A stretch of DNA of 64,000 bases. It comes from a virus. Every line of letters begins with the position of its first letter. The stretch's first letter is position 1. Under the pieces are notes generated by a model, which was not told where the DNA came from, ran no database searches, and was given only the letters and a program-made list of their open reading frames with translations. The stretch spans positions 4,098 through 68,097 of the IMG/VR virus record IMGVR_UViG_3300028030_000012; one strand, given 5' to 3'. The position numbers and the translations under genes were made by a program. This document shows positions 7,538 through 32,083 of this stretch, piece after piece.

Positions 7538-8518
7538 TTAAAAGGGTATATTTAATTCTATTTGTTTAGCGTTAAATATATTTTTAGCTCTTTGGTGGTT
7601 GGAATAAGAAGCGGTATATTTTTTTCTAAAGCGGATATTCTTTTGCTTCTTTTTAGACTTAATTTGTTCTATGATAGGGGCTTTATCACCTATTGTTAAA
7701 GTTTTTACCATTATTAATTTAGGGTGATTTGCAGTACCTATGACTTTTATAATTCGTTTTTTTCTTTTGGCTCTGGCTTTTACAGCTTTAATTAAAGCTT
7801 CTTCTTTCTGTCTTTTTTTCTTTCGATCATTTCTTTTAAATCGAGCAAAGGATTTATCCATATTTTGAGGACTTCCTGGTAGAGTTAATTTACCTACTGT
7901 CCATAAAAGAGTTATATTAGATGATTTTTCTGCTCTAGCATTTTTCCATTCTTGTTTAGGTATAAATGCCCAATTTTCAGAAGCTACCATAGTGGTTGCA
8001 AGAGATTGGAGCACTCTTGCTATAGTATTTTCTTTTCTAATACAGACTAATCTGTTAGAGTGTCTAATATGCTTTTTATGCCTTTGTTTAAGGGCGTATG
8101 CTTCTCGTTTTAGCTTGTTTTCTTTTATACAGGCTTCAACATACTTATGGTGTCTTTTAGCTTGCATAGAAGGTGTATAAACCTTTTTTTCTTTTTTTAC
8201 AGCTCTTTTAGATGAATTGAGTTCTTTTTGAATTTCTTTAGCCCGTTCTATACTAATTGCTATAGTAAGACCTGGATCTTTAGAATAACAATAATTTTTA
8301 ATTACTTCTTCTAAAGTATATAATTGTGATTTACCAGGTTTTGTAATTTTTTTAATAGGTCGAGACTTCTTTCTATTTTTAAGTAATTTATTTTTTTTAA
8401 TTTGTTTTTTCTTTGCTCTTCGTTGAGCTAAAGTGGTTTTATTTTTAGTAATTGCTTTTTGCTTAGCATTTACTTTTATTTCCGGTTTTTTAATAACTTT
8501 CTTTTCTAGTATAACCAT
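7538..8518 (-). CDS. very basic Lys/Arg-rich hypothetical protein
   Basis: 326-aa ORF with K/R runs. Confidence 0.65.
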   Translation of the reverse strand: MVILEKKVIKKPEIKVNAKQKAITKNKTTLAQRRAKKKQIKKNKLLKNRKKSRPIKKITKPGKSQLYTLEEVIKNYCYSKDPGLTIAISIERAKEIQKELNSSKRAVKKEKKVYTPSMQAKRHHKYVEACIKENKLKREAYALKQRHKKHIRHSNRLVCIRKENTIARVLQSLATTMVASENWAFIPKQEWKNARAEKSSNITLLWTVGKLTLPGSPQNMDKSFARFKRNDRKKKRQKEEALIKAVKARAKRKKRIIKVIGTANHPKLIMVKTLTIGDKAPIIEQIKSKKKQKNIRFRKKYTASYSNHQRAKNIFNAKQIELNIPF

Positions 8519-11598: not shown

Positions 11599-11926
11599 GG
11601 ATTATTTTTTTTAAAATTTTGAAAATTTCTTTATCTTCTCCTTTATTCCACATAGGCCGTTTGAATGCAAGTGTATCTATGATTGATTGAAAGGTTGTTA
11701 TAGGGTGTTTTAGTTCATAAAAAGTAATAGGTGAGTTTTTAGGGCAGTAGTACCAAGAATACTTTGTTTTTGATAGTATATTGAATCCATAGATTCTGTA
11801 AAGTAACTTATGGTGCTCTAGCGTTATGAATTTCCCAACTATTTTTTCTAAAGAAGTTACATCCTTTGTATTTTTTTCGGTTATTAATTTAGGAATTTCT
11901 TCTGTAAAATTAAAAATTATTTTCAT
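11585..11926 (-). CDS. hypothetical protein
   Basis: 113-aa ORF overlapping the next gene. Confidence 0.6.
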   Translation of the reverse strand: MKIIFNFTEEIPKLITEKNTKDVTSLEKIVGKFITLEHHKLLYRIYGFNILSKTKYSWYYCPKNSPITFYELKHPITTFQSIIDTLAFKRPMWNKGEDKEIFKILKKIIHEHI

Positions 11927-11934
11927 TTTTTAAA

Positions 11935-13120
11935 AGATTAGTAAGAGTAAGAACCTTAATAAGCTAAGTGTGGCAAAGTTAATGAGACTTCTTCACAGTC
12001 TTACTCTTACTCTTTTGATTCTATTATTCTAGATTCGCAATTTATTTCAGGTTGCGTTGATTTGTTCATGACGTTTCATGAACAGGTGTAAAAAAATTTT
12101 AAGGGGTTTTGTAAAATAAGGGCCTTTAGGATATCAAACAGTTTTAAATGTATTTCGTAAGATTGTGCTACTTTTACACCATAACCCTGTTGTAGGGTTT
12201 TGTAGGGTTCTATTCTGTTTTTATTTAATAAATATCGTTTACAGTACGACCTACTGTATTTTTCAGCGACTCTGTCTGCTTTTTACTTTATTCATTAATA
12301 AGATTAGTCTACCTACACCTTTCTTAAATTAAGTAGTTTATAGAAAGTTTTACGTTACGTATATTACAATTATACTTTTAAGAAAAACATTTATACTATT
12401 TATACTTCCTTTTTTTACTAATTTTGCATATTAAACTGCTGTTGGCCTTTAATATAGTATTTATAAAGTACTATATACCTAATCCAATGATGGCGGGATT
12501 CGAACTCTTTATAATCATTTCTAAGTATTTTACTAAGGAATAATCGCGTAACATGTCTCAACGGACTTCAACTTTAAAAGTATATATCTTTGACCTCTTG
12601 AATACACCATTGCATAATTTTAACAAATGTCACTAACCTCATCCTCATCAGGAATCTACTGTTAGTATAGACAGGGTACTATTTAGATCGTTATACTCTA
12701 ATAACATATCCTTTCTTTTATTTCCCAACTCTACGTTTACTCTATGTTTACCCAAGCCTCTGTATACTTAGGCCCCTCTTTTACCCGCATGGTTTTGGAC
12801 GCCATTGTTTTGACCTTATACATTTGATAAATGTCACTACGGTTATAGAAGTATTATTAGGCATGTATACTGCTGCACGTATAGGTAGGCAGCCATCCTA
12901 GGGCAGCATCCTGTTTACGGCAGTGTCTCACCTTTATTTGATTTTAAAGGGGCCGCCCATTTATTTCAACGTTTCTTAACAAAGTAATAAATACTTTTCA
13001 AGACCCTTCCTATAAATTAAAGTTTCAGGAGTTATTATAGTCTTCTAAACCTACTTAATTTCTTCACCGCTAGTCAGTACAGCGGTCCCTATTTGCGTTG
13101 TAATAGGTGTTTTAGGGGTT
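11935..13120. ncRNA. candidate large structured non-coding RNA region
   Basis: about 1.2 kb with no ORF of 60 aa or more in the track; many local and long-range inverted repeats. Confidence 0.5.
12485..12612 (-). ncRNA. tRNA-like element or degenerate tRNA
   Basis: acceptor-like CAATGGTG/CATCATTG, D-arm-like TATTCAAGAGGTCAAAGA, T-loop GTTCGAATCCC; T-stem broken and middle enlarged. Confidence 0.45.
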
Positions 13121-13124
13121 AATT

Positions 13125-14753
13125 TTAAAAATGATAAGAAACAATTTTAAAGTTTTTTCTAGGCAATCCCGAGGAATTTGCCAATGCAGTTACTTCTTGA
13201 ATTTTTGAAAAGGGCTTTACAGATTTGTTAACAACTTTTTTTATTTTAGATAATTCTTTTTTCAAAGTTTCTATATTATTAAAAGAGGAGTTAAATTCTA
13301 TATATTCAAAATCAAGTTCTATTATTAAAATCAGCCTTTTGTTATGTATAGCTATAGTAGCTTCATTTACAATTTTGAATCGTTTGGCTATTGATAATAT
13401 CTTTCCTGTTTCGATTACTAGACCTTTTTCATTAACAAAAATATTTTTTGTTTTGTTTTTAATTAAAACTTTATTATTGCGTACTAATCCAACGTCTTCA
13501 GTTCTAAATTTATTATTTTCGTCCTTAGGACTTGTTTGTTGTACTGTAATGTCAAAGTATTTCCATTTGTTATTATTTTCTAGGTAGCTATGAAAAAGAT
13601 CTGTACTAGTAACATTCAGTTCTCCAAAATCACTTACATCTCCAGTAGTATCAATAGATACGTTTTGTCTGGGAGTAAGCCATAAGTGCTTAGGTAACCT
13701 TGTCCAAGTTCCAGAAGCAATATAAGAGGACACTTCACTCATTACATAGAGCACTGTGTATTTTTTCTTGATTGAATTAAGTAATTTTCTTTTTGTAATT
13801 TTACCGTGTGTTATTATAGTTTTTATATGTTTACTAATGTGTTTTTTAAACAATCTCCTCATTATAAAGGAATGGCATAGTAATTTACAAAAAGGTGTAG
13901 ATTCTTGTTCTAATGTTTTTAATAGTATTTCTAATTTTTGAGTGTTAATATAAAGAGTTTTAACTTCAATTTCTTTAAAGGAATTGAATAAATCAGCGAT
14001 ATTATTTCCTTTACCTATTGTAACATGTTTACCATGTAATATAGGCGCTATTATACCATTTAAGATATCGTATAGGGAATTAAAAGGTTCTACTGTTAAT
14101 AAAGTATTTTCTATGTTATTAGAAAGTTCTTCATAAGAATCTTTTATTCCTTGATATATAGCGGAATGTTTTATGCGAGAGGCGGTATATAACCCTTTAG
14201 AAATCCCCTGATGAAAGAAAGTGCCTGTTACATGTTCAAAATTGGGATGCAAGTATGCTTCAGCTAGAGAAATATCGTCTTTATTGATTAAAGAGTCTTT
14301 TCCTGTACCTATACTGCTTACTACTTCAAATATTTTAGACATATAATCTTTTGTATCTTCATCTAATGCATTATAATTCCATCCTTTGGATATGATTTTG
14401 AATGTTCCAGGATGTAAGGTCAATAAAGTTTCATCTATAACTTCTTCTGCAATTATTACCCCATAACTTAATTTAGTTAACACTGTTTTTACTTTAGTAT
14501 CTTCTATATTATCTGAGGTGTCAAGAATTACAAAATTAGTCTCATAACTTAAACAAGCAATTATTGCAGCTATTCCATACATTTCATTGGTAACATATAT
14601 TCCAATTGTATCTGTAGTACTTACTCCTATACAACTTAAACTGCGTTCAATAAGTTCAGCTTTTTTAAGAATTTCTCCAGCAGTGTATGTCTTACCTTCA
14701 CTTGTTGTTAGTACAACTTCTAAGAAGTGTTTTTTTAGTTTTTTTTGAAGCAT
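13125..14753 (-). CDS. divergent AMP-binding (ANL, long-chain acyl-CoA ligase-like) protein
   Basis: 542 aa; colinear remnants PFNSLYD, YVMSE, FGELNV, FRTEDVG, IKNKTKNIFVNEKG. Confidence 0.65.
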   Translation of the reverse strand: MLQKKLKKHFLEVVLTTSEGKTYTAGEILKKAELIERSLSCIGVSTTDTIGIYVTNEMYGIAAIIACLSYETNFVILDTSDNIEDTKVKTVLTKLSYGVIIAEEVIDETLLTLHPGTFKIISKGWNYNALDEDTKDYMSKIFEVVSSIGTGKDSLINKDDISLAEAYLHPNFEHVTGTFFHQGISKGLYTASRIKHSAIYQGIKDSYEELSNNIENTLLTVEPFNSLYDILNGIIAPILHGKHVTIGKGNNIADLFNSFKEIEVKTLYINTQKLEILLKTLEQESTPFCKLLCHSFIMRRLFKKHISKHIKTIITHGKITKRKLLNSIKKKYTVLYVMSEVSSYIASGTWTRLPKHLWLTPRQNVSIDTTGDVSDFGELNVTSTDLFHSYLENNNKWKYFDITVQQTSPKDENNKFRTEDVGLVRNNKVLIKNKTKNIFVNEKGLVIETGKILSIAKRFKIVNEATIAIHNKRLILIIELDFEYIEFNSSFNNIETLKKELSKIKKVVNKSVKPFSKIQEVTALANSSGLPRKNFKIVSYHF

Positions 14754-15034
14754 AGTTCATTTTTAAGAATGGAGACTGAAATTTCTTCTTTAACATTAAT
14801 AATGTCGCCTTTTACAATGGTAATTTTGATATCCGCTTCTTTACTTATGAGTATAAAAGCAGTAGACTTTGCATTTTTAATTTTTCTAGTAAGTCTATTA
14901 CCTAAATGTGTAAATCTAAAATACTTTTTTATATACCCGTATCCTTTATTTGAATAAGTGAGCATCTCAGTTTCTATGAAAGTCCTGACAAGCATTTCGA
15001 TTCTTTTTTCAGAGTTATTATTATTTTTGATCAT
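14735..15034 (-). CDS. hypothetical protein
   Basis: 99-aa ORF overlapping the ANL-like gene start. Confidence 0.6.
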   Translation of the reverse strand: MIKNNNNSEKRIEMLVRTFIETEMLTYSNKGYGYIKKYFRFTHLGNRLTRKIKNAKSTAFILISKEADIKITIVKGDIINVKEEISVSILKNELCFKKN

Positions 15035-15243: not shown

Positions 15244-17442
15244 TTAGATAGCTGTTTTTTCTGCTAGAAAGGTAATATCTCCTGAACTAAAGTCAGGCTT
15301 CATATGAATTTGCTTACCTTTTGTTGTAGAATTTTTTGCTTTTTCATTCTCTTTTTTAATCTTTTGAGAATACTTTAATAAGGCTTCTACAAAATCAATT
15401 TTAGCAGATTCCATAGATTTAGATCCGGTTGTTTTTATAGTCTCATTAAATCCGTTTAAAGTACAGCTATATGTACCGTCTGTTTCCAAAGTAATAGTGG
15501 CTGAATATTGAGGTCTTGTTAAAAGGTCTGTTGAAGTAGACTTAATAGTAAGCTTAGGATCGCTTTGAGTGTCCTTTTTAGCTTGTTTAAGAGCCTCTTT
15601 CTCTTCTGGTGTCTTTTGGAACTTCTCTCCTCCTTTAACTTCTTCATTAGGCTCTTCTTTAACCTTTTGATTATTATTAGCTCTATATCTTTTTTTATTA
15701 AATTCAGCAATAGCTTTAGAAAAATATTTGATTCTAAATTCTTTCTTATCTTTCTCTCCTATAGCTTCTTTTATAGAAGTTTCAAGGGATTTTTCAAAAC
15801 TGTAGATAGAAGTTAAAATGTTAGTACTTTTTTCAACTAATGTAACTAAAGCTTGGCGTGTTTCTTTTGCAACATTATTAACAGTTTCGGACTTGGTCGA
15901 TACAGCCATTTGGTTGCTGGGTACACTATTGGGTTTAGTCTTTTCTTCAGTTTTTGTGGCGGTCCCATCCGCCTTATTTGAAAAATCATATTCGAAATTA
16001 AGCTTACTTTTACATTCTTGTTCGGTATCGGCACTTTGAGCTTTTACATGAACATCTATTAAAGTATTTACAGCCTGTTTGAAATCCTCTTCTTTAGCAT
16101 AACCTTTTATAATAGTTTGTACTCCAGGCCCCTCAACTTTACCTTGGAAAAATTGTTTAGAATCTTTGGTTACTTTAATAGAGTATTCTAATATTTTTAT
16201 TTCGGAAGAGGTAGTTGATTTTTCTTCTTTTACAATCTCTTCTTTTTTAGTTGAAGGTTTAAGAACTCCGTTATCATTAAGACGTACAATTAATTTATCA
16301 ATAAAGTTATTTATTTTACTATCTTCCCAAGTACGTTTGGTTTTAGAAGTACCTTTTTCATTAACTGTATATCTTGTGTAAGCTCTTACAAGATTTTTAG
16401 CATGTTTAATACCTTCTTTATAGGAACCTTTTTGTTCTTGTTTAAAAACTAAGATATTTTCAATTAACTTTTCTAAATGTTTAAAAGAATTTGTAATAAA
16501 TAGGTTATTTAAAAACCACCTTACTTTTTCAACTGGCCATATACTCCCTGTTTTAGAGTCAGAATAAAATTTGGTTAACTCATCAATCGCTTGATTTTCT
16601 CTACCAGTTATTCTGAGATACATAGCTCGTTGCTTAACAAAATCTTGAGGATTTACATTATCAACATTATTTTTACCTGTTAACAGCATTAAATTGAAAT
16701 TATTGTCTACAGTGTATAAGGTTTTTCCATTTAGCAGTTCTTCTCCTTTGATAAGAGATTCTAAGGGTACTGTAATGGCAGTATCAATTCCTTCTTTTTT
16801 AATTTCTTCGGCAAATACCTCAAGATTGGCATTAGCTTGTTCTTTTATAACTACTTGTACAAATTTTGATAAGATACTTCTAATATTTGTAATTCCTAAA
16901 TCTTGGTTATTTAAAAGATCTTTAACTTTTGTATAAAGTTTAGCTTTAGCAACATTTCCTTTTGAAGATTGCCATTCTTTTACTATACTGTCTTTAAATT
17001 CGTCTGTTAATTTTTCTTTAGGCAGGTCGAATAAAGACTTAAAAGTGGGTCGTTTTTTAATATTTTCTTTTTTAGGCATTAGTGCAATAACTGAATTGGT
17101 AGATTCATTAACTGTTTCAGTAATAACACTTGTTTCTGCATCTACTACAAGCTCTTTTTCAGCTACTTTTTCAACTACTTTGTTGATTATTTGAGGTGAT
17201 TGGGCAGTAAGTTGTAAAGCATAAGATTCTAAGGATTGCTCAATATTATCTAATACTTTTCTATAATAAGTAGTTTTTCCAGATAATTTTACCATTTTGA
17301 CATTATCTACTTGAACAAGATCTGGTATTTTGATTCCAGATTCGGGTAAAGATACTTCATCCTTTAAAGCTTTTCTGAAATATTTAGCTAGTGTTACTAA
17401 AGGTTCGATAGTCTCTGTACCAATAATTTTTACATTTCCCAT
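15244..17442 (-). CDS. 732-aa protein with two putative HicB-like domains
   Basis: YSATITLETDGTYSC...AKIDFVEAL and YSIKVTKDSKQFFQG...LNFEYDF. Confidence 0.6.
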   Translation of the reverse strand: MGNVKIIGTETIEPLVTLAKYFRKALKDEVSLPESGIKIPDLVQVDNVKMVKLSGKTTYYRKVLDNIEQSLESYALQLTAQSPQIINKVVEKVAEKELVVDAETSVITETVNESTNSVIALMPKKENIKKRPTFKSLFDLPKEKLTDEFKDSIVKEWQSSKGNVAKAKLYTKVKDLLNNQDLGITNIRSILSKFVQVVIKEQANANLEVFAEEIKKEGIDTAITVPLESLIKGEELLNGKTLYTVDNNFNLMLLTGKNNVDNVNPQDFVKQRAMYLRITGRENQAIDELTKFYSDSKTGSIWPVEKVRWFLNNLFITNSFKHLEKLIENILVFKQEQKGSYKEGIKHAKNLVRAYTRYTVNEKGTSKTKRTWEDSKINNFIDKLIVRLNDNGVLKPSTKKEEIVKEEKSTTSSEIKILEYSIKVTKDSKQFFQGKVEGPGVQTIIKGYAKEEDFKQAVNTLIDVHVKAQSADTEQECKSKLNFEYDFSNKADGTATKTEEKTKPNSVPSNQMAVSTKSETVNNVAKETRQALVTLVEKSTNILTSIYSFEKSLETSIKEAIGEKDKKEFRIKYFSKAIAEFNKKRYRANNNQKVKEEPNEEVKGGEKFQKTPEEKEALKQAKKDTQSDPKLTIKSTSTDLLTRPQYSATITLETDGTYSCTLNGFNETIKTTGSKSMESAKIDFVEALLKYSQKIKKENEKAKNSTTKGKQIHMKPDFSSGDITFLAEKTAI

Positions 17443-21742: not shown

Positions 21743-21858
21743 GATTTTGGTTTGTTTAGTTTAACAATTTGTTTTATTTTACTACGTTCACCCTTAGTGA
21801 GTAGATGGTGCAAAGCTTTATTACTAACACCTGTAATTGATTTTAATGTTTCTTTCAT
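21739..21858 (-). CDS. small basic protein (39 aa, not in the track)
   Basis: preceded by the AAAACTGACAAAATG motif; ATGA overlap with the next gene. Confidence 0.55.
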   Translation of the reverse strand: MKETLKSITGVSNKALHHLLTKGERSKIKQIVKLNKPKS

Positions 21859-21961
21859 TTTGTCAGTTTTAAGTTATTTTATAGTTAAAAGCATAGAGCT
21901 TGACGTTTCAAGATATGCTTTAGCAAAATAAACGTACTACTACGCCTATATTCTGAATTGA

Positions 21962-22189
21962 TTAATAAAAAGTTACCTCTGTTATAGAATTTATTGGGAT
22001 GTATTTTATGATATTTACAAGAGGTATTACATTATTAGAAGTAGGATAGTCAGGGTTAGTTATAACCTTATGAGATACCCTAAGGCACTTTAAACCTAAT
22101 TGATTAGTGAGTTTACTATAGTTTGTGTGTACTTTATATTCTGTATTATTTGCAGTAATAAAGAGGCCTTGTTTTTTATAATTCCCCAT
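21962..22189 (-). CDS. hypothetical protein
   Basis: 75-aa ORF. Confidence 0.55.
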   Translation of the reverse strand: MGNYKKQGLFITANNTEYKVHTNYSKLTNQLGLKCLRVSHKVITNPDYPTSNNVIPLVNIIKYIPINSITEVTFY

Positions 22190-22201
22190 AATAATATTAA
22201 A

Positions 22202-22363
22202 TTAAAAGTCTTTGTCACACATTGAATAAGCAAAAGCAAGTATAGCAGCAATGCCTATTACGACAAATACTGTAGTGAGTTCAAAAGGTTTAAAACCTAA
22301 GGAGTGTGATAGTATTACACTAAAAGTAGCTATTAAAAGAATTGTAAATGTTTGACGTTTCAT
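22202..22363 (-). CDS. small two-TM membrane protein (53 aa, not in the track)
   Basis: MKRQTFTILLIATFSVIL...VFVVIGIAAILAFAY. Confidence 0.55.
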   Translation of the reverse strand: MKRQTFTILLIATFSVILSHSLGFKPFELTTVFVVIGIAAILAFAYSMCDKDF

Positions 22364-22508
22364 TTTGAATAAGTTTTAGTTATGTAATAATGATAAGCTA
22401 TATGAATACATCTCAATCGAAGGTAAACTAGGCACTGTCTAATTGAGGGAAAGAGGGAAGGTTCTACTATATAAAATAAGAGCATAAACACTATAAAATA
22501 AGGCTAAA

Positions 22509-22527
22509 TAGCCCTAAAATAGGGCTA
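22509..22527 (-). terminator. hairpin after the first leftward gene
   Basis: TAGCCCTA-aaa-TAGGGCTA. Confidence 0.45.
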
Positions 22528-22534
22528 AATAAGG

Positions 22535-22735
22535 TTATTCTAGTAGTTTTAGAGCCTCCTCTGGGACTTTAATAGCATCATCTACTTTGTAGCTTATATG
22601 ACCCTCTGGTGCGAACCAAGCAATGTAAGCATTACCTGCTTTAAGGAAGTCTCCAATTACTTCATTATCAAGTCCAATCATGTACCATTGGCCATTTTTG
22701 GCCTGTTTTAATTTAATAATCAATAAAGTTTTCAT
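22535..22735 (-). CDS. hypothetical protein, first gene of the leftward arm
   Basis: 66 aa, preceded by AAAACTGACAAAATG. Confidence 0.65.
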   Translation of the reverse strand: MKTLLIIKLKQAKNGQWYMIGLDNEVIGDFLKAGNAYIAWFAPEGHISYKVDDAIKVPEEALKLLE

Positions 22736-22814
22736 TTTGTCAGTTTTTGTGATTAAACATAGGGGGCTTCGCCCGCTTAGTTAGCATAGGGGGGACTTGA
22801 TGTATGATGGAATG

Positions 22815-22887
22815 GGCATTTAGACATATGCATAAAAATAAAAATTACTGAAATTTTTTTTGAGTAGGCATTTAGACATATACATAA
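22815..22887. repeat. 21-bp direct repeat pair at the strand switch
   Basis: GGCATTTAGACATATGCATAA (22815) and GGCATTTAGACATATACATAA (22867). Confidence 0.85.
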
Positions 22888-22976
22888 TTTTAATATATAA
22901 AATTCTAAAAAAATCACATATAAGCTATATAAAAATTATCGAAATCAAAAAAGTAGTAATTTTTTTTAGGTTTTAT

Positions 22977-23003
22977 TGAAACCTTTTGCCTACTATCCTC
23001 GTA
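22977..23003 (+). promoter_or_regulatory. AAC-N17-CGTA promoter-like motif, copy 2
   Basis: TGAAAC-cttttgcctactatcct-CGTA at the head of the rightward arm. Confidence 0.55.
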
Positions 23004-23132
23004 CCTATTATTAGAATTTTTTAATAAAAGAAAAGTAATACAAAAGAAAACAAAGCATAGAAGTAAGAATGTAAGACTATCGAAAGAGTAGTATAAATAG
23101 TTTGAGCGTTCAATTCACAACATGAATGTAGT

Positions 23133-23360
23133 GTGAATTTCACTAACAAAAGTAAATTAATATTAAGGTATATGAATATTAGTAAATACAAGTATAGTAA
23201 AAGTAGAATTACTGATTCCTTAAATGCTAATAGGTTAATACCTTTAGATATTAATAACAGCAGGGGGAAGAAGGCCAAACCTAAAGTACGTAAGCTAGTA
23301 CCTATGGCAACAGCCCTAGCAGACCCTATTTTAAAGGCTAAAATGGTTGGTAAATGGTAG
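23133..23360 (+). CDS. possible small basic protein (start uncertain, perhaps 23172)
   Basis: ORF overlapping the next start. Confidence 0.35.
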   Translation: MNFTNKSKLILRYMNISKYKYSKSRITDSLNANRLIPLDINNSRGKKAKPKVRKLVPMATALADPILKAKMVGKW

Positions 23361-27748: not shown

Positions 27749-30700
27749 ATGAAAGCTGAGTTAAAAGTAACAAAGAACAGTAATAAATTTAGAAAACCTG
27801 CATTACACTATCAAAAATATGACCAGTATTTGTTTGCTCCACAAGGCACTTCAGAATATGTAAAATACTGGTCTACAGAATATGATAGGTGTAAATTTGG
27901 TTATACAGCTGAGGATGGTGATTTCATCCCCGGCTATTTTTATTTCTACTTGAATTACTTTCCTATTAGTCTGATTAAAGAGGTTGAGGTAGAAATAGGG
28001 GTAGGTAAAACAAGTAGGAGGGCTTCGGCTATACGGGACTTTCCTAGTTTTTATGATTATGACAGGTTTTTCTTTGAGTCTATAGAGAATTGTGAAGAGG
28101 AGGGCAAACACCTTATAGTTCTAAAAGCTCGTCGTAAAGGGTATAGTTACAAAATAGCTTCAATGTTATTACGCAACTATTATTTTTTTAGAGGTTCTAA
28201 AGGATTTGCCCTAGCTGCAGAGGCAGAGTTTTTAGTAAAGGACGGTATTCTAACTAAGACTTGGGATGGCATGGACTTTTTAGATCAGCATACCGCTTGG
28301 TTTAAAAAAAGGCAAGTTAAGAATACTATGATGTGGCGTAGAGCCTCTTTCTTACAAAAAGATGACACTGGTGTAGATATTGAAATAGGCTACAAGTCTG
28401 AGATAATGGGGGTTACTTTAAAGAATGATCCTCAGAAAGCTAGGGGTAAAGGCGGCCGGCTTATTATATTTGAAGAGGCTGGTAAGTTTAGAAACCTATT
28501 ACAAGTATGGCAAATTGCGAGACCCTCTGTAGAACAAGGCTCTTTTGTACAAGGGACAATGATTGGTTTTGGATGTACGTTAGCGGGTACAAAGCTTTAT
28601 ACCAAAGAGGGTAGGTTAGTTAATGTAGAAGATTTAAAAATAGAGAGTGGGACTATAGGTTATAATGGATATTCTCATGAGAAGGAAGATATTGTAGGTA
28701 CCCTTTTTAGTTTTAAAAAACAGAGTTATAAAATTACATTGAATTCTGGTAGGTTTATAGAATGTAGTTATGACCATCCTATGCTATTCAGTAAAAGGGA
28801 TTTACAAGAGAGAGTGCCTGGGTTTAGAGGAGAAGGGCTGAGGCGTAAAAAAGTAAAATGGGCAAAAACTGAAGATTTAAAAATAGGGGATCAATTAGCT
28901 GTTTTAGAAGAATTTCCTTTTGAATCAAATAAAGAAATGTGGGAACCTCGTTTTATAGGGTTACTTATTGGAGATGGTTCTTATGGTTATAATAAAACAC
29001 CAGTACTATCTAATGCTGATGAAGAAGTTAATTCTTTTATAGATGATAGATTTAACACAGTAATAGAAAAATCTTATATTACAAAAGATGGTAGACTATA
29101 TAGAGAAACTAGAATAAAAGGAATTACTAAAAAATTACGGGGACTAGGGATCTATGGGCAAACTAAAAATAGAAAAGCTTTTCCCATTGATATACATTCT
29201 TATTCTGAAAATACTGTTACAGAAATATTAAGTGGGTTTTTTGATGCTGATGGGTATATTTATCAAACAAAAACAGGGCGTATTAGAATTAATTTTTCTT
29301 CTTCTTTTGATTTACTATTAGAAGTGCTTTATTTATTACAAAGATTGGGTATACATGGTAAAATACATTTTATAAAAGATGAAAGAAAAAATAGAAAAAT
29401 AAAAAGTAATGGGGGGTACTATAGACTTTCTATAGAAGATCTTAAGAGTTTACTTGTATTTTCTACTAAAATAATTTCACTTATTAATAGGAAACAAACC
29501 CTTTTAAATAAAATAGTTGGGTATGCATCTGTACATGAAAGTTCCTTAAGTAAATATATTTCTGGTATAAGATTCGAAAGGATTGTAAAAATAGAAGATT
29601 TAGGGGAACAGCCTGTTTATAATTTGCAAACTTCGAACACTCATACCTATATCGCTAATGGTATTGTAACTAAAAACACAGGGGGTGAGGAAGGCGAAGA
29701 TTTTGATGGTCTTAAAGAATTGTTTGAGAGGCCTAAAGCATACAATTGTTTAGAGTTAGATAATATATGGGATGAGGAAAATATTGGTCAAAAGGTAGGA
29801 TTCTTTGTACCACAGTATGCTAACTTAGAAGGGGAATATTATAATGAGGATGATAAGGATGACCCTTTAAATGGAGAGCCCTTTATGGATGATCAAGGTA
29901 ATACTAGAACTTTAGTAGCTAAGAAGTATGTGCTATTACAAAGGTCAAAAGTAATAAAGAATGCTTCAGATAGACGTGCTATAGATAGGCATATTGCTGA
30001 GCAGCCTATAATACCTGCAGAAGCCCTACTTGATTTAAGTTCTAATATATTCCCTAAAGCTGATTTGCAAAGGCATTTAGCTCATATAAGGAATGACGAA
30101 AAGTTACGTCAGTTTAAACAAGTGGGAGATTTATATTTTGATAATGAAGGTATTATAAAGTGGATGCCTGTAGAAGCTGATAAAGCTAAAGATATTATAA
30201 GGTATCGTTTAGATCCGCAAGACGACCCTAAGGGTCAAATAGTAATATGGGAACACCCTATGAAAGCCCCTCCTTGGGGCTTATATATAGCAGGCTGTCT
30301 TACTCCAGGTGAGAAAGTAAATACTTCAGAAGGATTAAAGAATGTGGAGGATGTAACACTAGAAGATAAACTCATAAATAAAGAAGGGGAAGAAGTCGAA
30401 ATAAATACTTTATTAAGATATGAAAAAGTAAACGAACCTACTTATAAAGTGCATATGTATAATGTGGATAGGCCTACTAATTATACACAAGAACATCCTT
30501 TATATGTAGCAGATATTCCTGAAGGTAAGTTCGATTTTATAAGGGCAGAAGAAGTTGAAAAAGGCATGTGGACTAAAGCTCCTAATTATTATAAAATAAA
30601 TTCTAAAGAGATTGATACTACTATTTGGGATAATTATAAAACTAGAAATACAAAAGATACTAATCCTTTGTTAGATGAAGATTTTTGGTGGTTTGTAGGA

Positions 30701-32083
30701 CATTGGTTAGGAGACGGGTTCAATCATAAACAAGGGAGAAATTATACTATTTACAATTCTTTCGGTAAAAAAGAAACTGATTATATAGACAAGTATAAAA
30801 GAATTGTTAAAGAACTTTTTAATAGAAATCCTAATCCCAAAGTTCAAAATGGATCTGGTACGCATAAGTTTGAATTTAAACAATTATTCTTATTCTTAGA
30901 AGATAATTTTGGTAAATATGCCGATGGTAAGTATATTTCTGAATGGGTTAAGTATATACCTGAAGAATATAAACTTCAATTAGTTTTAGGATATTTAGAT
31001 TCTGACGGATCTGTTTATTTAGATAACAATAGAATAGTTAGTAGTTTTAAAAGTATTAATAGAAAATTACTTTATGATATACAAGACATTTTATTTTCGG
31101 TAGGAATTGTATCTAGTTTTCATTTGTCTGAAAAGAAAGGGAAATACAATATTAAGGGGAAAATTGGAAATAGAAAAGAAAGTTATCGTTTAAGAGTGAA
31201 TCAGACAAATACTGTAAAATTATATAATTTATACAATTCTTTATACAATAGTAGAAAATTAAAGTTGATAGGAGTTAATAAAAACGGAATAAATTTTGTT
31301 AAAAGCAGAGGTTGTCAAATGTCTGAGGATTTAACTTATATTTACATTAAAATAAAAAATATAGAAGTGTCTACATATTCGGGTACCGTTTATAATTTTG
31401 ATTGTAAAACACACAGTTTTATATGTCAGTACTTCTCGGGACATAACTGTGACCCCTATGATCACGATAAATCAGGGACTAATTCTTTAGGTTCTACTTT
31501 TATATTTAAACGAATACAGAGTTTTGAAGAATATTATGATATGCCTGTAGCAGAGTATACTGGTAGGCCGGATACTGCAGCAGAATATTATGAGAATGTT
31601 CGTAAATTACTTATGTATTATAATGCTACTTTATTATATGAAAATGAGAAGAAAGGTTTATTCTTTTATTTTGAAAAAGTAAACGCCACTTATTTATTAG
31701 CAGACCAGCCTAATGATTTAATAGGAGATATTGTAAAAGATAGTAAAGTAGACAGGAAAAAAGGAATCCATATGTCTCAGTTTATTAAGGACTGGGGAGA
31801 GGGTGCAATAAGGGACTGGTTAGTCGAAGAGTTTGCCCCAGGTAAAAAGAATCTTACCAAAATAATGTCGGAACCTTTATTAGAGGAACTCATAGCCTAC
31901 AATGATAAAGGTAATTTCGATAGGGTAATGGCATTCATGTTGGTCATGATGTACCGACAACAACTGCATAAGTTGCATGTTAAGAAAAATCGTTTGGAAA
32001 ATAAAAAGCGCTTGTTATTTCCTGATGGTTTATTTACAGGCTATGATGATGAGGAAAATTATACGTATAACATTTCAATTTAA
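27749..32083 (+). CDS. terL: terminase large subunit with two inteins (about 692 aa after splicing)
   Basis: LKARRKGYS Walker A, IFEEAG Walker B, CDPYD nuclease, GNFDRV. Confidence 0.93.
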   Translation: MKAELKVTKNSNKFRKPALHYQKYDQYLFAPQGTSEYVKYWSTEYDRCKFGYTAEDGDFIPGYFYFYLNYFPISLIKEVEVEIGVGKTSRRASAIRDFPSFYDYDRFFFESIENCEEEGKHLIVLKARRKGYSYKIASMLLRNYYFFRGSKGFALAAEAEFLVKDGILTKTWDGMDFLDQHTAWFKKRQVKNTMMWRRASFLQKDDTGVDIEIGYKSEIMGVTLKNDPQKARGKGGRLIIFEEAGKFRNLLQVWQIARPSVEQGSFVQGTMIGFGCTLAGTKLYTKEGRLVNVEDLKIESGTIGYNGYSHEKEDIVGTLFSFKKQSYKITLNSGRFIECSYDHPMLFSKRDLQERVPGFRGEGLRRKKVKWAKTEDLKIGDQLAVLEEFPFESNKEMWEPRFIGLLIGDGSYGYNKTPVLSNADEEVNSFIDDRFNTVIEKSYITKDGRLYRETRIKGITKKLRGLGIYGQTKNRKAFPIDIHSYSENTVTEILSGFFDADGYIYQTKTGRIRINFSSSFDLLLEVLYLLQRLGIHGKIHFIKDERKNRKIKSNGGYYRLSIEDLKSLLVFSTKIISLINRKQTLLNKIVGYASVHESSLSKYISGIRFERIVKIEDLGEQPVYNLQTSNTHTYIANGIVTKNTGGEEGEDFDGLKELFERPKAYNCLELDNIWDEENIGQKVGFFVPQYANLEGEYYNEDDKDDPLNGEPFMDDQGNTRTLVAKKYVLLQRSKVIKNASDRRAIDRHIAEQPIIPAEALLDLSSNIFPKADLQRHLAHIRNDEKLRQFKQVGDLYFDNEGIIKWMPVEADKAKDIIRYRLDPQDDPKGQIVIWEHPMKAPPWGLYIAGCLTPGEKVNTSEGLKNVEDVTLEDKLINKEGEEVEINTLLRYEKVNEPTYKVHMYNVDRPTNYTQEHPLYVADIPEGKFDFIRAEEVEKGMWTKAPNYYKINSKEIDTTIWDNYKTRNTKDTNPLLDEDFWWFVGHWLGDGFNHKQGRNYTIYNSFGKKETDYIDKYKRIVKELFNRNPNPKVQNGSGTHKFEFKQLFLFLEDNFGKYADGKYISEWVKYIPEEYKLQLVLGYLDSDGSVYLDNNRIVSSFKSINRKLLYDIQDILFSVGIVSSFHLSEKKGKYNIKGKIGNRKESYRLRVNQTNTVKLYNLYNSLYNSRKLKLIGVNKNGINFVKSRGCQMSEDLTYIYIKIKNIEVSTYSGTVYNFDCKTHSFICQYFSGHNCDPYDHDKSGTNSLGSTFIFKRIQSFEEYYDMPVAEYTGRPDTAAEYYENVRKLLMYYNATLLYENEKKGLFFYFEKVNATYLLADQPNDLIGDIVKDSKVDRKKGIHMSQFIKDWGEGAIRDWLVEEFAPGKKNLTKIMSEPLLEELIAYNDKGNFDRVMAFMLVMMYRQQLHKLHVKKNRLENKKRLLFPDGLFTGYDDEENYTYNISI
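28574..29677 (+). mobile_element. intein 1 with LAGLIDADG endonuclease (368 aa)
   Basis: GFG|CTLAGT ... YIANGIVTKN|T; FIGLLIGDG and LSGFFDADG. Confidence 0.9.
30296..31447 (+). mobile_element. intein 2 with LAGLIDADG endonuclease (384 aa)
   Basis: IAG|CLTPGE ... FSGHN|CDPYD; VGHWLGDG and LGYLDSDG. Confidence 0.9.

What the first reader, a model, noticed from the sequence alone, without database searches (positions are those of the whole stretch)
13125..14753. Phage-encoded acyl-CoA-ligase-like protein with eroded catalytic motifs
Seen: a full-length 542-aa ORF colinear with the ANL adenylate-forming fold, but with core motifs altered. The P-loop YTSGTTGxPKG reads FFHQGISKGLYT, LPLxH reads EPFNSLY, YGMTE reads YVMSE, TGD reads TED, and the hinge GRxKN reads NKTKN; a Lys remains in the C-terminal LPRKNFKI. 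Known: these motifs bind ATP/AMP in acyl-CoA synthetases, which are not a standard crAss-like gene to my knowledge. Inference: a host-derived enzyme kept intact but repurposed, for example as a pseudo-enzyme, ligand sponge or inhibitor of host lipid metabolism.
Basis: partly seen in the sequence, partly recalled or inferred. Interest (0 to 1): 0.7.

Follow-up and report, generated by a model that had tools for sequence, protein, structure and literature searches.

The report
Remodelled acyl-CoA-ligase-like enzyme in crAss-like phages
A crAss-like phage carries an intact, conserved relative of bacterial fatty-acid-activating enzymes that keeps the residues that hold AMP but has rebuilt the parts that handle ATP's outer phosphates and coenzyme A, so it is probably an enzyme with a changed reaction, not a dead one, and it sits next to an undescribed structured RNA.

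Summary
ORF 13125-14753 (-) encodes a 542-aa, full-length, colinear member of the ANL (adenylate-forming) fold. hhalign against Bacteroidales-type long-chain acyl-CoA synthetases gives 99.9% probability and E 5.7e-36. Foldseek gives E 5e-24, and every listed match is an ANL enzyme.

"Eroded" is the wrong word. The protein belongs to an old, diversified clade: 35 representative clusters, one tree branch with support 100, and the only DNA seen comes from crAss-like phage contigs. In this clade the altered motifs are themselves conserved (F-H-x-G-[IA]-[ST]; E-P-F-x-x-L-Y-D-I-x-N-G).

The only three columns invariant across 108 canonical and divergent sequences are Tyr336, Glu340 and Asp420, which sit in the A5 and A7 motifs that hold AMP and Mg. 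The residues lost are the P-loop hydroxyls, the A4 histidine (0 of 35) and the second half of A8.

Best reading (0.5): a working adenylate-binding or adenylate-forming enzyme with altered phosphate handling and a non-CoA acceptor. A pseudoenzyme or ligand binder remains possible (0.27).

Found in passing: a ~650-nt covarying structured RNA with no Rfam match lies directly 3' of the gene in 3 of 3 loci.

The parts
13125..14753 (-). Gene for the 542-aa divergent ANL-superfamily (acyl-CoA-synthetase-like) protein
   Evidence: ORF. Homology. Fold.
14178..14216 (-). Remodelled A3 / P-loop region (residues 180-192, F-H-Q-G-I-S-K-G-L-Y-T-A-S)
   Evidence: The canonical column Thr (71/73) is His in 33/35. 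Ser (73/73) becomes variable. Gly is kept in 32/35. Thr/Ser (73/73) becomes Ile/Ala/Val in 30/35. The canonical Lys column (71/73) is Lys in 21/35 and is Thr in the window protein. Gap placement differs. Model confidence dips here (block 181-190 has pLDDT 67).
14055..14090 (-). Remodelled A4 region (residues 222-233, E-P-F-N-S-L-Y-D-I-L-N-G)
   Evidence: The canonical His (73/73) is absent in 35/35. Canonical Leu (73/73) is Glu in 29/35. Tyr228 is kept in 33/35. New conserved residues are Asn232 (28/35) and Gly233 (30/35).
13731..13751 (-). A5 motif (residues 335-341, L-Y-V-M-S-E-V) with invariant Tyr336 and Glu340
   Evidence: Tyr and Glu are present in 35/35 divergent and 73/73 canonical sequences. 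Both flanking Gly are lost. The Thr column holds Ser or Thr in 15/35.
13488..13514 (-). A7 motif (residues 414-422, ending F-R-T-E-D-V-G) with invariant Asp420
   Evidence: Asp is present in 35/35 and 73/73, and Thr418 in 34/35. The Gly between them is kept in only 6/35 and is Glu in the window protein.
13443..13463 (-). A8 / hinge motif (residues 431-437, I-K-N-K-T-K-N)
   Evidence: Canonical Arg (72/73) is Lys in 32/35 and Arg in 2/35. Further on, Gly444 is kept in 28/35, while the canonical N-I-Y-P-E columns are replaced.
13143..13169 (-). C-terminal basic motif (residues 529-537, G-L-P-R-K-N-F-K-I), the candidate A10 lysine
   Evidence: Gly529 is present in 31/35 and position 536 is Lys or Arg in 30/35. 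It is one column away from the column that is Lys in 39/73 canonical sequences, so equivalence is not settled. hhalign stops at residue 525, and the model has pLDDT below 50 at 534-536 and 540-542.
14735..15034 (-). 99-aa ORF of no known family whose end overlaps the ANL start by 19 nt
   Evidence: The same 19-nt overlap occurs in 4 of 4 loci. Homologues are aligned. There is no Pfam match above cut-off.
12474..13124 (-). Candidate ~650-nt structured RNA directly 3' of the ANL stop codon (3' domain 12474-12688)
   Evidence: An ORF-free gap is present in 3 of 3 loci that have downstream DNA. Covariation. A covariance model finds the third locus. No Rfam match. The ANL-sense strand folds better, and G+C is 36% against 28% in the flanks.
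15244..17442 (-). Syntenic 732-aa Lys/Glu-rich protein of unknown function upstream
   Evidence: A homologous large ORF lies upstream in L001 (634 aa) and L003 (699 aa). No PHROG or Pfam family.

Best explanation
The gene encodes a functional, highly derived member of the ANL adenylate-forming superfamily. It belongs to an old clade so far seen only on crAss-like phage contigs or unnamed phage-sized contigs. That clade branches next to bacterial long-chain acyl-CoA-synthetase-like enzymes. The protein keeps the two-domain fold and the residues that hold the AMP moiety and Mg in canonical enzymes: the A5 Tyr and Glu, the A7 Thr and Asp, a basic A8 residue, and a C-terminal Lys/Arg. It has replaced three elements with new, conserved motifs. 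These are the hydroxyl-rich P-loop that grips the beta/gamma phosphates of ATP, the A4 histidine that gates the pantetheine tunnel, and the second half of A8. Most likely it still binds an adenine nucleotide and forms or uses an acyl-adenylate, but with altered leaving-group handling and an acceptor other than CoA. Shown here: fold, homology, which residues are kept or replaced, clade structure and synteny. Inferred: nucleotide binding, catalysis and the nature of the acceptor. The roles assigned to the motif residues come from general knowledge of ANL enzymes, not from a call.
For: Full-length colinear homology to canonical enzymes: hhalign probability 99.9, E 5.7e-36, 496 columns. Confident ANL model (pLDDT 90.4, pTM 0.84) whose listed PDB matches are all ANL enzymes, best E 5e-24. 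It is slightly nearer to adenylate-forming than to thioester-forming conformers: luciferase 4g36 at 0.64 against 4g37 at 0.60, and CBAL 3cw8 at 0.62 against 3cw9 at 0.55. The only invariant columns in 108 sequences are Tyr336, Glu340 and Asp420. Within 35 divergent sequences, Thr418 is kept in 34, Lys/Arg434 in 34, Gly183 in 32 and Lys/Arg536 in 30. 11 of 21 columns conserved at >=85% fall in the 66 core-motif residues (odds ratio 9.3, Fisher p 5e-6). The replaced motifs are themselves conserved: His181 33/35, Glu222 29/35, Tyr228 33/35, Asn232 28/35, Ser192 30/35. The clade is deep, with 35 rows, SH-like support 100 and three subclades, and every member read here is an intact ORF of ~470-555 aa. 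Gene order is conserved, including a 19-nt overlap with an upstream ORF in 4 of 4 loci.
Against: No activity or ligand binding was or could be measured. The canonical P-loop signature is absent, and in the window's own subclade the canonical Lys column is Asn or Thr. The A4 His is absent in 35/35. The Gly of the T-G-D motif is kept in 6/35, and the Thr column of A5 holds Ser/Thr in only 15/35. The equivalence of Lys536 with the catalytic A10 lysine is off by one column and poorly modelled. Retention of nucleotide-holding residues would equally fit a non-catalytic nucleotide or acyl-AMP binder. The confident model was built with canonical ANLs in the alignment, so it leans towards their shape; the family-only model reached only pLDDT 69.7 and was poor over residues 338-446. 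The motif windows for the enrichment test were chosen after seeing the alignment.
Confidence: 0.5

Rival explanations
1. Pseudoenzyme or ligand binder. The fold is kept as a non-catalytic binder of a fatty acid, acyl-AMP, CoA or another adenine nucleotide, or of a host protein. It would act as a sponge, sensor or inhibitor during infection.
For: The canonical P-loop hydroxyls, the A4 His (0/35), the T-G-D glycine (6/35) and the second half of A8 are lost. Pfam and NCBIfam scores are far below the curated cut-offs: 24.6 against 29.9, and 40.7 against 330. The clade sits on a long stem branch of 0.59. The retained Tyr, Glu and Asp could serve binding alone.
Against: Residues whose known role is catalytic or Mg-related, such as Glu340 and the basic residues at 434 and 536, stay conserved over a very deep clade. 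The new motifs carry a near-invariant His at the phosphate-loop position, which looks like replacement chemistry rather than loss. No match to anti-defence or defence profiles. 542 residues is large for a sponge.
Confidence: 0.27
2. Ordinary auxiliary metabolic gene: a working long-chain acyl-CoA synthetase that simply tolerates unusual motif sequences.
For: The nearest canonical relatives are named long-chain acyl-CoA synthetases. The alignment is colinear over the full length. A few phage proteins annotated as Acs-like exist in BFVD.
Against: The A4 His is invariant in 73/73 canonical relatives and absent in 35/35 clade members. The N-I-Y-P-E columns of A8 (57-70 of 73 canonical) are replaced. 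No AMP-binding_C or AMP-binding_C_3 domain is detected. All 75 rows with a canonical P-loop lie on the other side of a branch with support 100.
Confidence: 0.1
3. RNA-linked module. The protein acts on, is loaded with, or is regulated by the structured RNA encoded immediately 3' of it, for example through adenylation or acylation of an RNA end, or through an RNP.
For: The gene and the RNA are adjacent, on the same strand, in 3 of 3 loci whose proteins are only 33-49% identical. Both are present in 1 and both absent in 4 of 5 other crAss-like records searched. The putative CoA-side elements of the enzyme are the ones that were remodelled.
Against: This rests on adjacency only. The sample is three loci of one phage lineage that share the whole gene order, so they are not independent. 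No RNA-binding domain was detected. No expression data exist. No ANL enzyme acting on RNA is known to me (recalled).
Confidence: 0.06

Closest known systems
Bacteroidales-type long-chain acyl-CoA synthetase-like proteins (Pfam AMP-binding PF00501 + AMP-binding_C_3 PF23562; best NCBIfam NF004837; e.g. cluster of P0032, named by its sources 'long-chain acyl-CoA synthetase' or 'AMP-binding protein [Bacteroidales bacterium]')
   Same: Same two-domain fold, length and colinear order of all core motifs. They share the invariant A5 Tyr and Glu and the A7 Thr and Asp. These are the best canonical hits of the family profile.
   Different: Only 14-19% identical. The P-loop, A4 His, T-G-D Gly, A8 Arg and N-I-Y-P-E, and the C-terminal K-T-P motif are all replaced. 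No C-terminal Pfam domain is detected. They lie on the other side of a branch with support 100. They sit on bacterial contigs up to 1 Mb, against phage-sized contigs of <=96 kb for the clade.
ANL enzymes that do not make CoA thioesters (fatty acyl-AMP ligases, DltA, NRPS adenylation domains, luciferase, amide-bond synthetase McbA)
   Same: These are the top structural neighbours alongside the CoA ligases (DltA 3l8c TM 0.63, luciferase 4g36 TM 0.64, McbA, NRPS A domains). They show that the fold can deliver an adenylate to acceptors other than CoA, which is how I think this protein works (inference).
   Different: As far as I recall, all of them keep a canonical P-loop (recalled, not tested here). 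No carrier-protein gene, phosphopantetheine site or MbtH-like partner was recognised next to this gene.
Phage and giant-virus ANL-fold proteins in BFVD (e.g. A0A6J5L563 'Acs Acyl-coenzyme A synthetases/AMP-(Fatty) acid ligases [uncultured Caudovirales phage]')
   Same: Virus-encoded proteins with the ANL fold (E 1.4e-19, TM 0.53).
   Different: 10-13% identity. Only 9 BFVD entries reach E<=1e-3, of which six are annotated as ANL-type (AMP-binding or Acs), one as GH3 and one carries no name. Their motif status was not examined. No sequence-level relative of the clade exists in 50,697 deposited phage records.
Large phage-associated structured RNAs such as GOLLD and ROOL (for the neighbouring RNA; names recalled)
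   Same: A long (~650 nt), covarying, phage-borne non-coding element.
   Different: No match to any of 4227 Rfam families at E<=1 in the window or in the two related loci. No tRNA gene is nearby. Only three copies are known.

Membership tests
ANL superfamily (class I adenylate-forming enzymes) | Two-domain ANL fold (large N-terminal domain plus small C-terminal domain) | tested here: met
   Foldseek against the PDB: at least 500 matches, all listed ones ANL enzymes, best E 5e-24, TM up to 0.64. The family-only model also hits only ANLs among the listed matches. ESM Atlas structure TM 0.72 to AMP-binding clusters.
ANL superfamily (class I adenylate-forming enzymes) | Significant full-length sequence-profile homology | tested here: met
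   hhalign probability 99.9, E 5.7e-36, columns 2-525 against 26-550. The profile finds 777 proteins including NRPSs.
ANL superfamily (class I adenylate-forming enzymes) | Pfam PF00501 score above the gathering cut-off | tested here: not met
   24.6 bits against 29.9, N-terminal 99 residues only. 9 of the 12 family proteins carry a precomputed PF00501 hit. Several deeper relatives have none.
ANL superfamily (class I adenylate-forming enzymes) | A3 P-loop rich in Thr/Ser/Gly and ending in Lys-Gly | tested here: not met
   T-S-G-T-T columns read H-x-G-I-S. Thr to His in 33/35. The canonical Lys column is Thr in the window protein and Lys in 21/35.
ANL superfamily (class I adenylate-forming enzymes) | A5 aromatic residue and Glu (Y-G-x-T-E) | tested here: met
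   Tyr336 and Glu340 are present in 35/35 and 73/73. The Gly is replaced, and the Thr is Ser in the window protein.
ANL superfamily (class I adenylate-forming enzymes) | A7 Asp (T-G-D) | tested here: met
   Asp420 in 35/35 and Thr418 in 34/35. The middle Gly is Glu in the window protein and is kept in 6/35.
ANL superfamily (class I adenylate-forming enzymes) | A8 Arg and hinge (G-R-x-K-N/D) | tested here: inconclusive
   Arg to Lys in 32/35, a conservative change. Gly433 is kept in 18/35 and Lys436 in 15/35.
ANL superfamily (class I adenylate-forming enzymes) | A10 catalytic Lys in the C-terminal domain | tested here: inconclusive
   Position 536 is Lys or Arg in 30/35, but it is one column away from the column that is Lys in 39/73 canonical sequences. 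This region is outside the hhalign alignment and poorly modelled.
ANL superfamily (class I adenylate-forming enzymes) | ATP-dependent adenylation of a carboxylate | not testable with these tools
   Needs ATP-PPi exchange or acyl-AMP detection on purified protein.
Long-chain-fatty-acid--CoA ligase (FadD-like) | Score above a curated family cut-off (NCBIfam) | tested here: not met
   The only NCBIfam hit is menE at 40.7 bits against a cut-off of 330. There is no hit to NF004837, which is the best family for the canonical relatives.
Long-chain-fatty-acid--CoA ligase (FadD-like) | A4 His (L-P-x-x-H) at the pantetheine tunnel | tested here: not met
   His in 73/73 canonical relatives and 0/35 in the clade. 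The window protein has Ser226.
Long-chain-fatty-acid--CoA ligase (FadD-like) | Recognisable AMP-binding_C or AMP-binding_C_3 C-terminal domain | tested here: not met
   Not reported at E<=10 for the window protein. Present in canonical relatives P0032, P0037 and P0045.
Long-chain-fatty-acid--CoA ligase (FadD-like) | Formation of acyl-CoA | not testable with these tools
   Biochemical assay needed.
Any described RNA family (for the adjacent element) | Match to an Rfam covariance model | tested here: not met
   No match at E<=1 in window 11800-13300. No match inside the gaps of L001 or L002. ARAGORN finds no tRNA or tmRNA in the window.

The most novel reading that the evidence does not exclude
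The remodelled ANL enzyme and the ~650-nt structured RNA encoded directly behind it form one phage module. The enzyme keeps its adenylate site but has swapped its CoA-side machinery, so that it can act on or with the RNA, for example by charging or adenylating an RNA end, or by working as an RNP. That would make it the first ANL-fold enzyme with an RNA partner.
Probability: 0.06. Interest if true: 0.9.

Novelty: new variant of a known kind. Interest (0 to 1): 0.5.

Why it matters
ANL enzymes are among the best-studied enzyme superfamilies, and their ten core motifs are treated as near-universal. This is a deep, apparently phage-restricted clade that keeps the AMP-holding residues and systematically rebuilds the P-loop, the A4 gate and the A8 motif. 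It offers a natural experiment on which motifs are dispensable, and it points to an unknown reaction in an early-gene region of environmental crAss-like phages, whose biology is mostly uncharted. I found no paper linking crAss-like phages with such a gene: 0 papers hold 'crass-like' with 'acyl-coa synthetase' or with 'amp-binding'. Supplements were not searched. The neighbouring covarying RNA with no Rfam family is a second, independent lead.

Tried and rejected
Complex prediction of the ANL protein with the translationally coupled 99-aa ORF gave no answer (score 0.00, controls not run). It is no evidence either way.

The look-up of sequencing runs listed no RNA holder; the only holder is a DNA run that may be the source sample.

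PHROGs gave no significant family for the ANL protein. PADLOC gave none for it or four neighbours. phmmer of the single protein against PDB sequences gave 0 hits at E<=10; only the profile gave weak hits, mostly to ANL enzymes (best E 4e-4).

The search for related loci found few loci with DNA: 1 in viral contigs and 2 in metagenome contigs. The subclade-B alignment found the same viral record only. Alignments A4 and A6 were too diverse to make patterns. The genome-contig scan with A3 gave 10 weak partial matches (22-29% identity over ~100-180 residues) to ordinary bacterial ANLs and no clade member; that was one peptide pattern only.

Two RNA motif scans of viral contigs found only the already known record. 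blastn of the RNA against deposited phages found nothing.

Reading the ORF-free gap under TAG=Q or table 4 gave no long frame on the ANL strand in the conserved part. The sigma-70 promoter and terminator scan was not above shuffles.

The treekit maximum-likelihood run did not finish in 300 s, so FastTree was used. mafft-qinsi is not installed.

dN/dS was not computed. The only pairs with DNA are <=50% identical in protein, so synonymous sites would be saturated.

Paper searches with 'crass' were swamped by Neurospora crassa and similar names and are uninformative. 'adenylate-forming' + 'pseudoenzyme' gave 2 papers, of which 1 was listed, an aldehyde dehydrogenase review (listing only). The phage auxiliary-metabolic-gene search gave 4 unrelated listings, and none of the 10 papers listed in the Crassvirales / structured-RNA search holds the term 'Crassvirales'.

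The T-arm-like string in the RNA was considered as a tRNA or tmRNA remnant and rejected: ARAGORN and Rfam are negative, and the flanking bases do not form a T-stem (read).
Full report

Yes. One search lists an ATG-started ORF at 13125..14753 on the - strand, 542 aa, in a region of about 28-30% G+C where long open frames are rare.
- FFHQGISKGLYT (residues 179-190)
- EPFNSLY (222-228)
- YVMSE (336-340)
- TED (418-420)
- NKTKN (433-437)
- LPRKNFKI (530-537)

On its own the protein barely registers in curated libraries:
- Pfam AMP-binding scores 24.6 bits against a cut-off of 29.9, over residues 14-112 only.
- No PHROG family is significant.
- phmmer finds nothing among PDB sequences.
- NCBIfam's best hit is menE at 40.7 bits against a cut-off of 330.

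**2. Homology and fold**

The word-indexed protein search found 12 proteins, the window's own plus 11 relatives. All are 537-553 aa and 33-50% identical over 100% of the query; 9 of the 12 carry a precomputed PF00501 hit.

- A profile of these 12 (A1) finds weak PDB hits, mostly ANL enzymes (LgrA, MenE, 4-coumarate ligase), with the weakest rows (E>1) being BRCA1 chains. The ANL hits fall at both the N-terminal and C-terminal ends.
- The same profile finds 777 proteins at E<=1e-3 in the 1.84-billion-protein representative library (112 at <=1e-10, 20 at <=1e-30), including NRPS-sized proteins.
- A profile-profile comparison with 13 canonical hits (A5) gives probability 99.9, E 5.7e-36 and 496 aligned columns, covering query 2-525 against template 26-550.
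- An AF2 model from the 12-sequence alignment was mediocre: pLDDT 69.7, poor over 338-446. Even so, all of its listed PDB matches were ANL enzymes, at E~1e-16.
- A model from a 108-sequence alignment (A8) reached pLDDT 90.4 and pTM 0.84. Its listed PDB matches are all ANL enzymes, best E 5e-24, with TM up to 0.64. This second alignment contains canonical ANLs, so the model leans towards their shape.
- The ESM Atlas agrees: feature score 0.98, and TM 0.72 by structure.

Membership of the ANL fold and superfamily is therefore established.

**3. Which relatives, and where do they live?**

The best canonical hits (P0032, P0037, P0040, P0045) score 210-238 bits on PF00501. P0032, P0037 and P0045 also carry AMP-binding_C_3. 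Their best NCBIfam family is NF004837, long-chain-fatty-acid--CoA ligase.

The P0032 cluster has 45 members. Their sources name them 'long-chain acyl-CoA synthetase' or 'AMP-binding protein [Bacteroidales bacterium]', and they sit on contigs of up to 1 Mb.

The motif-altered relatives look different. Seven of the eight clusters looked up are singletons (one has five members), none carries a name, and their contigs are <=96.4 kb.

A FastTree of 125 full-length hits puts 35 motif-altered rows on one side of a branch with SH-like support 100 and length 0.59. They form three deep subclades of 14, 14 and 7 rows. All 75 rows whose P-loop matches a canonical regular expression lie on the other side. 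So do 15 regex-negative rows that I did not inspect. The tree is midpoint-rooted for drawing only, so 'derived from a host enzyme' is an inference.

DNA was accessible for four members only: the window, L001, L002 and L003.
- The window is crAss-like. Its portal is ~47% identical to the best-matching crAss-like phage records, e.g. cr131_1 and cr118_1, out of 155 matching records. Its muzzle protein scores E 4e-164. The terminase and portal match PHROGs.
- The record is a 68,097-base linear virus record, estimated 66% complete.
- L001 lies in a complete 96,402-base record with terminal repeats that also encodes a muzzle protein.

Searches elsewhere came back empty:
- tblastn of one member of each subclade found no match in 50,697 deposited phage records.
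- The clade profile found no match in four other crAss-like records, three of them complete.
- One pattern scan of 185,579 species genomes found only weak partial matches to ordinary ANLs.

The only sequencing run holding the stretch is labelled a hydrothermal vent metagenome and may be the source sample.

**4. What has changed and what has not**

The 108-sequence alignment compares 35 divergent with 73 canonical sequences, column by column.

Kept:

| Residue | Divergent | Canonical |
|---|---|---|
| Tyr336 | 35/35 | 73/73 |
| Glu340 | 35/35 | 73/73 |
| Asp420 | 35/35 | 73/73 |
| Thr418 | 34/35 | 72/73 |
| Gly183 | 32/35 | 73/73 |
| Gly414 | 31/35 | 70/73 |
| Basic residue at 434 | Lys 32 + Arg 2 | Arg 72/73 |
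| Gly444 | 28/35 | 73/73 |
| Gly377 | 27/35 | 70/73 |
| Glu378 | 25/35 | 71/73 |
| Lys/Arg536 | 30/35 | see below |

Replaced:
- P-loop Thr becomes His in 33/35.
- P-loop Ser (73/73) becomes variable.
- P-loop Thr/Ser (73/73) becomes Ile, Ala or Val in 30/35.
- The canonical P-loop Lys column (71/73) is Lys in 21/35, and is Asn or Thr in the window's subclade. That subclade instead has a Lys one position into a one-residue insertion.
- A4 Leu becomes Glu in 29/35.
- A4 His (73/73) is absent in 35/35.
- The Gly of T-G-D is kept in 6/35.
- The N-I-Y-P-E columns of A8 are replaced.
- The C-terminal K-T-P motif is replaced by R-K-N.

Gap placement in the P-loop differs between alignments. hhalign shows a 3-residue deletion followed by a 4-residue insertion. 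MAFFT on 39 sequences shows shifted gaps. MAFFT on 108 sequences shows a single insertion. Only the change in composition is robust, not a 'deletion'.

The only invariant columns over all 108 sequences are Tyr336, Glu340 and Asp420. In a separate alignment of 33 divergent sequences, 21 columns are >=85% conserved. Of these, 11 fall within the 66 residues I assigned to seven core motifs (odds ratio 9.3, Fisher p 5e-6). I drew those motif windows after seeing the alignment.

From general knowledge of ANL enzymes, not from a call:
- The A5 aromatic residue stacks on adenine.
- The A5 Glu binds Mg.
- The A7 Asp binds the ribose hydroxyls.
- The P-loop grips the beta/gamma phosphates.
- The A4 His gates the pantetheine tunnel.
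- A8 and A10 switch between the two half-reactions.

On that basis, the AMP side of the site is conserved and the pyrophosphate side and CoA side are rebuilt.

**5. Mechanism**

The pattern is not what decay produces. The substitutions are fixed and conserved over a clade whose members are down to ~19-25% identical, and all members read are intact.

I therefore favour (0.5) a working adenylate-binding or adenylate-forming enzyme with altered leaving-group handling and an acceptor other than CoA. A near-invariant His sits at the phosphate-loop position.

A non-catalytic nucleotide or acyl-AMP binder (0.27) explains the kept binding residues equally well, and it explains the lost P-loop better. 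It does not explain as well the conservation of the Mg-binding Glu and of the basic residues at 434 and 536.

An ordinary acyl-CoA synthetase (0.1) is hard to square with the loss of the A4 His in 35/35 and with the rebuilt A8.

**6. Context**

Gene order is conserved in all loci that reach far enough:
- A 630-730-aa Lys/Glu-rich protein comes first.
- A small ORF follows.
- A ~99-aa ORF comes next, whose end overlaps the ANL start by 19 nt in 4 of 4 loci.
- The ANL gene follows.
- An ORF-free stretch of 1.1-1.2 kb comes next.
- ORFs of ~110 aa and ~150 aa close the block.

None of the neighbours matches a Pfam family above its cut-off, and none of the four neighbours scanned matches a PADLOC model. 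A complex prediction for the 99-aa ORF gave no answer.

**7. The neighbouring RNA (outside the finding's coordinates)**

The first ~650 nt of the gap (window 12474-13124, - strand) are 65-80% identical to L002 in blocks, although the flanking proteins are only 49% identical.

- RNAalifold on the two sequences predicts 114 pairs, 37 of them with compensatory double changes.
- As an independent control I folded the window sequence alone and asked whether L002 keeps those pairs. 21 pairs stayed paired through double changes, against 7-14 when partners were slid. 73 were broken, against 95-112.
- A covariance model of the 3' domain recovered the third locus, L001, at 50.7 bits and E~5e-12. There the closing helix differs in sequence in all three loci and pairs in all three.
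- On that alignment, 99% of cells are paired against 36-48% when slid, 19 of 35 pairs change on both sides, and 0 of 500 shuffles reach the observed values. The caveats are that there are only three real sequences and the alignment was fitted to the model.
- The ANL-sense strand folds better: -75.4 against -58.6 kcal/mol. G+C is 36% against 28% in the flanks.
- There is no Rfam match, no tRNA and no similar sequence in deposited phages.
- The RNA model and the ANL profile hit the same 1 of 5 crAss-like records.

Whether the RNA and the enzyme are functionally linked is open. The three loci share the whole gene order, so they are not independent evidence.

**8. Verdict**

This is a new, apparently phage-restricted variant of a well-known enzyme kind. 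Its function is unknown, but its active site is clearly under constraint. An undescribed structured RNA lies beside it.

Noticed in passing
window 12474-13124 (-); L002 2187-2888 (+); L001 about 7651-8395 (+): A ~650-nt conserved, covarying, G+C-enriched non-coding element lies directly 3' of the ANL gene in 3 of 3 loci. It has no Rfam family and no tRNA. Its 3' domain is modelled as R1.
   Followed up: partly
window 11927-12473 (-): The rest of the ORF-free gap is AT-rich and is not conserved with L002. It ends in a long inverted repeat just before the next gene's start at 11926. L001 has a G+C-rich hairpin followed by a T-run at the same place (read).
   Followed up: no
window 14735-15034 (-): A 99-aa ORF of no known family overlaps the ANL start codon by exactly 19 nt in 4 of 4 loci. 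It has only weak sub-threshold HTH-like Pfam hits. The complex prediction gave no answer.
   Followed up: partly
window 27749-32083 (+): The terminase large-subunit ORF is 1444 aa and carries an intein with a LAGLIDADG endonuclease: Intein_splicing E 1.3e-13, LAGLIDADG_3 E 6e-19. PHROG hits to RNR, primase and helicase in the insert probably reflect shared inteins.
   Followed up: partly
window 41318-45883 and 45886-50454 (+): Two adjacent giant ORFs of 1521 and 1522 aa carry fn3, Ig-like, cadherin-like and DUF285 domains. They are probably tail or adhesin proteins.
   Followed up: no
window about 21750-23350: A strand switch: all ORFs of >=100 aa are on the - strand before 21.7 kb and almost all are on the + strand after 23.3 kb. 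G+C, GC skew and AT skew jump at the same point.
   Followed up: no
whole window / G000: This crAss-like phage has a portal only ~47% identical to the best-matching deposited crAss-like phage records. The only run holding the stretch is labelled a hydrothermal vent metagenome. Its closest portal relatives (60-81% identity) are short IMG/VR contigs.
   Followed up: no
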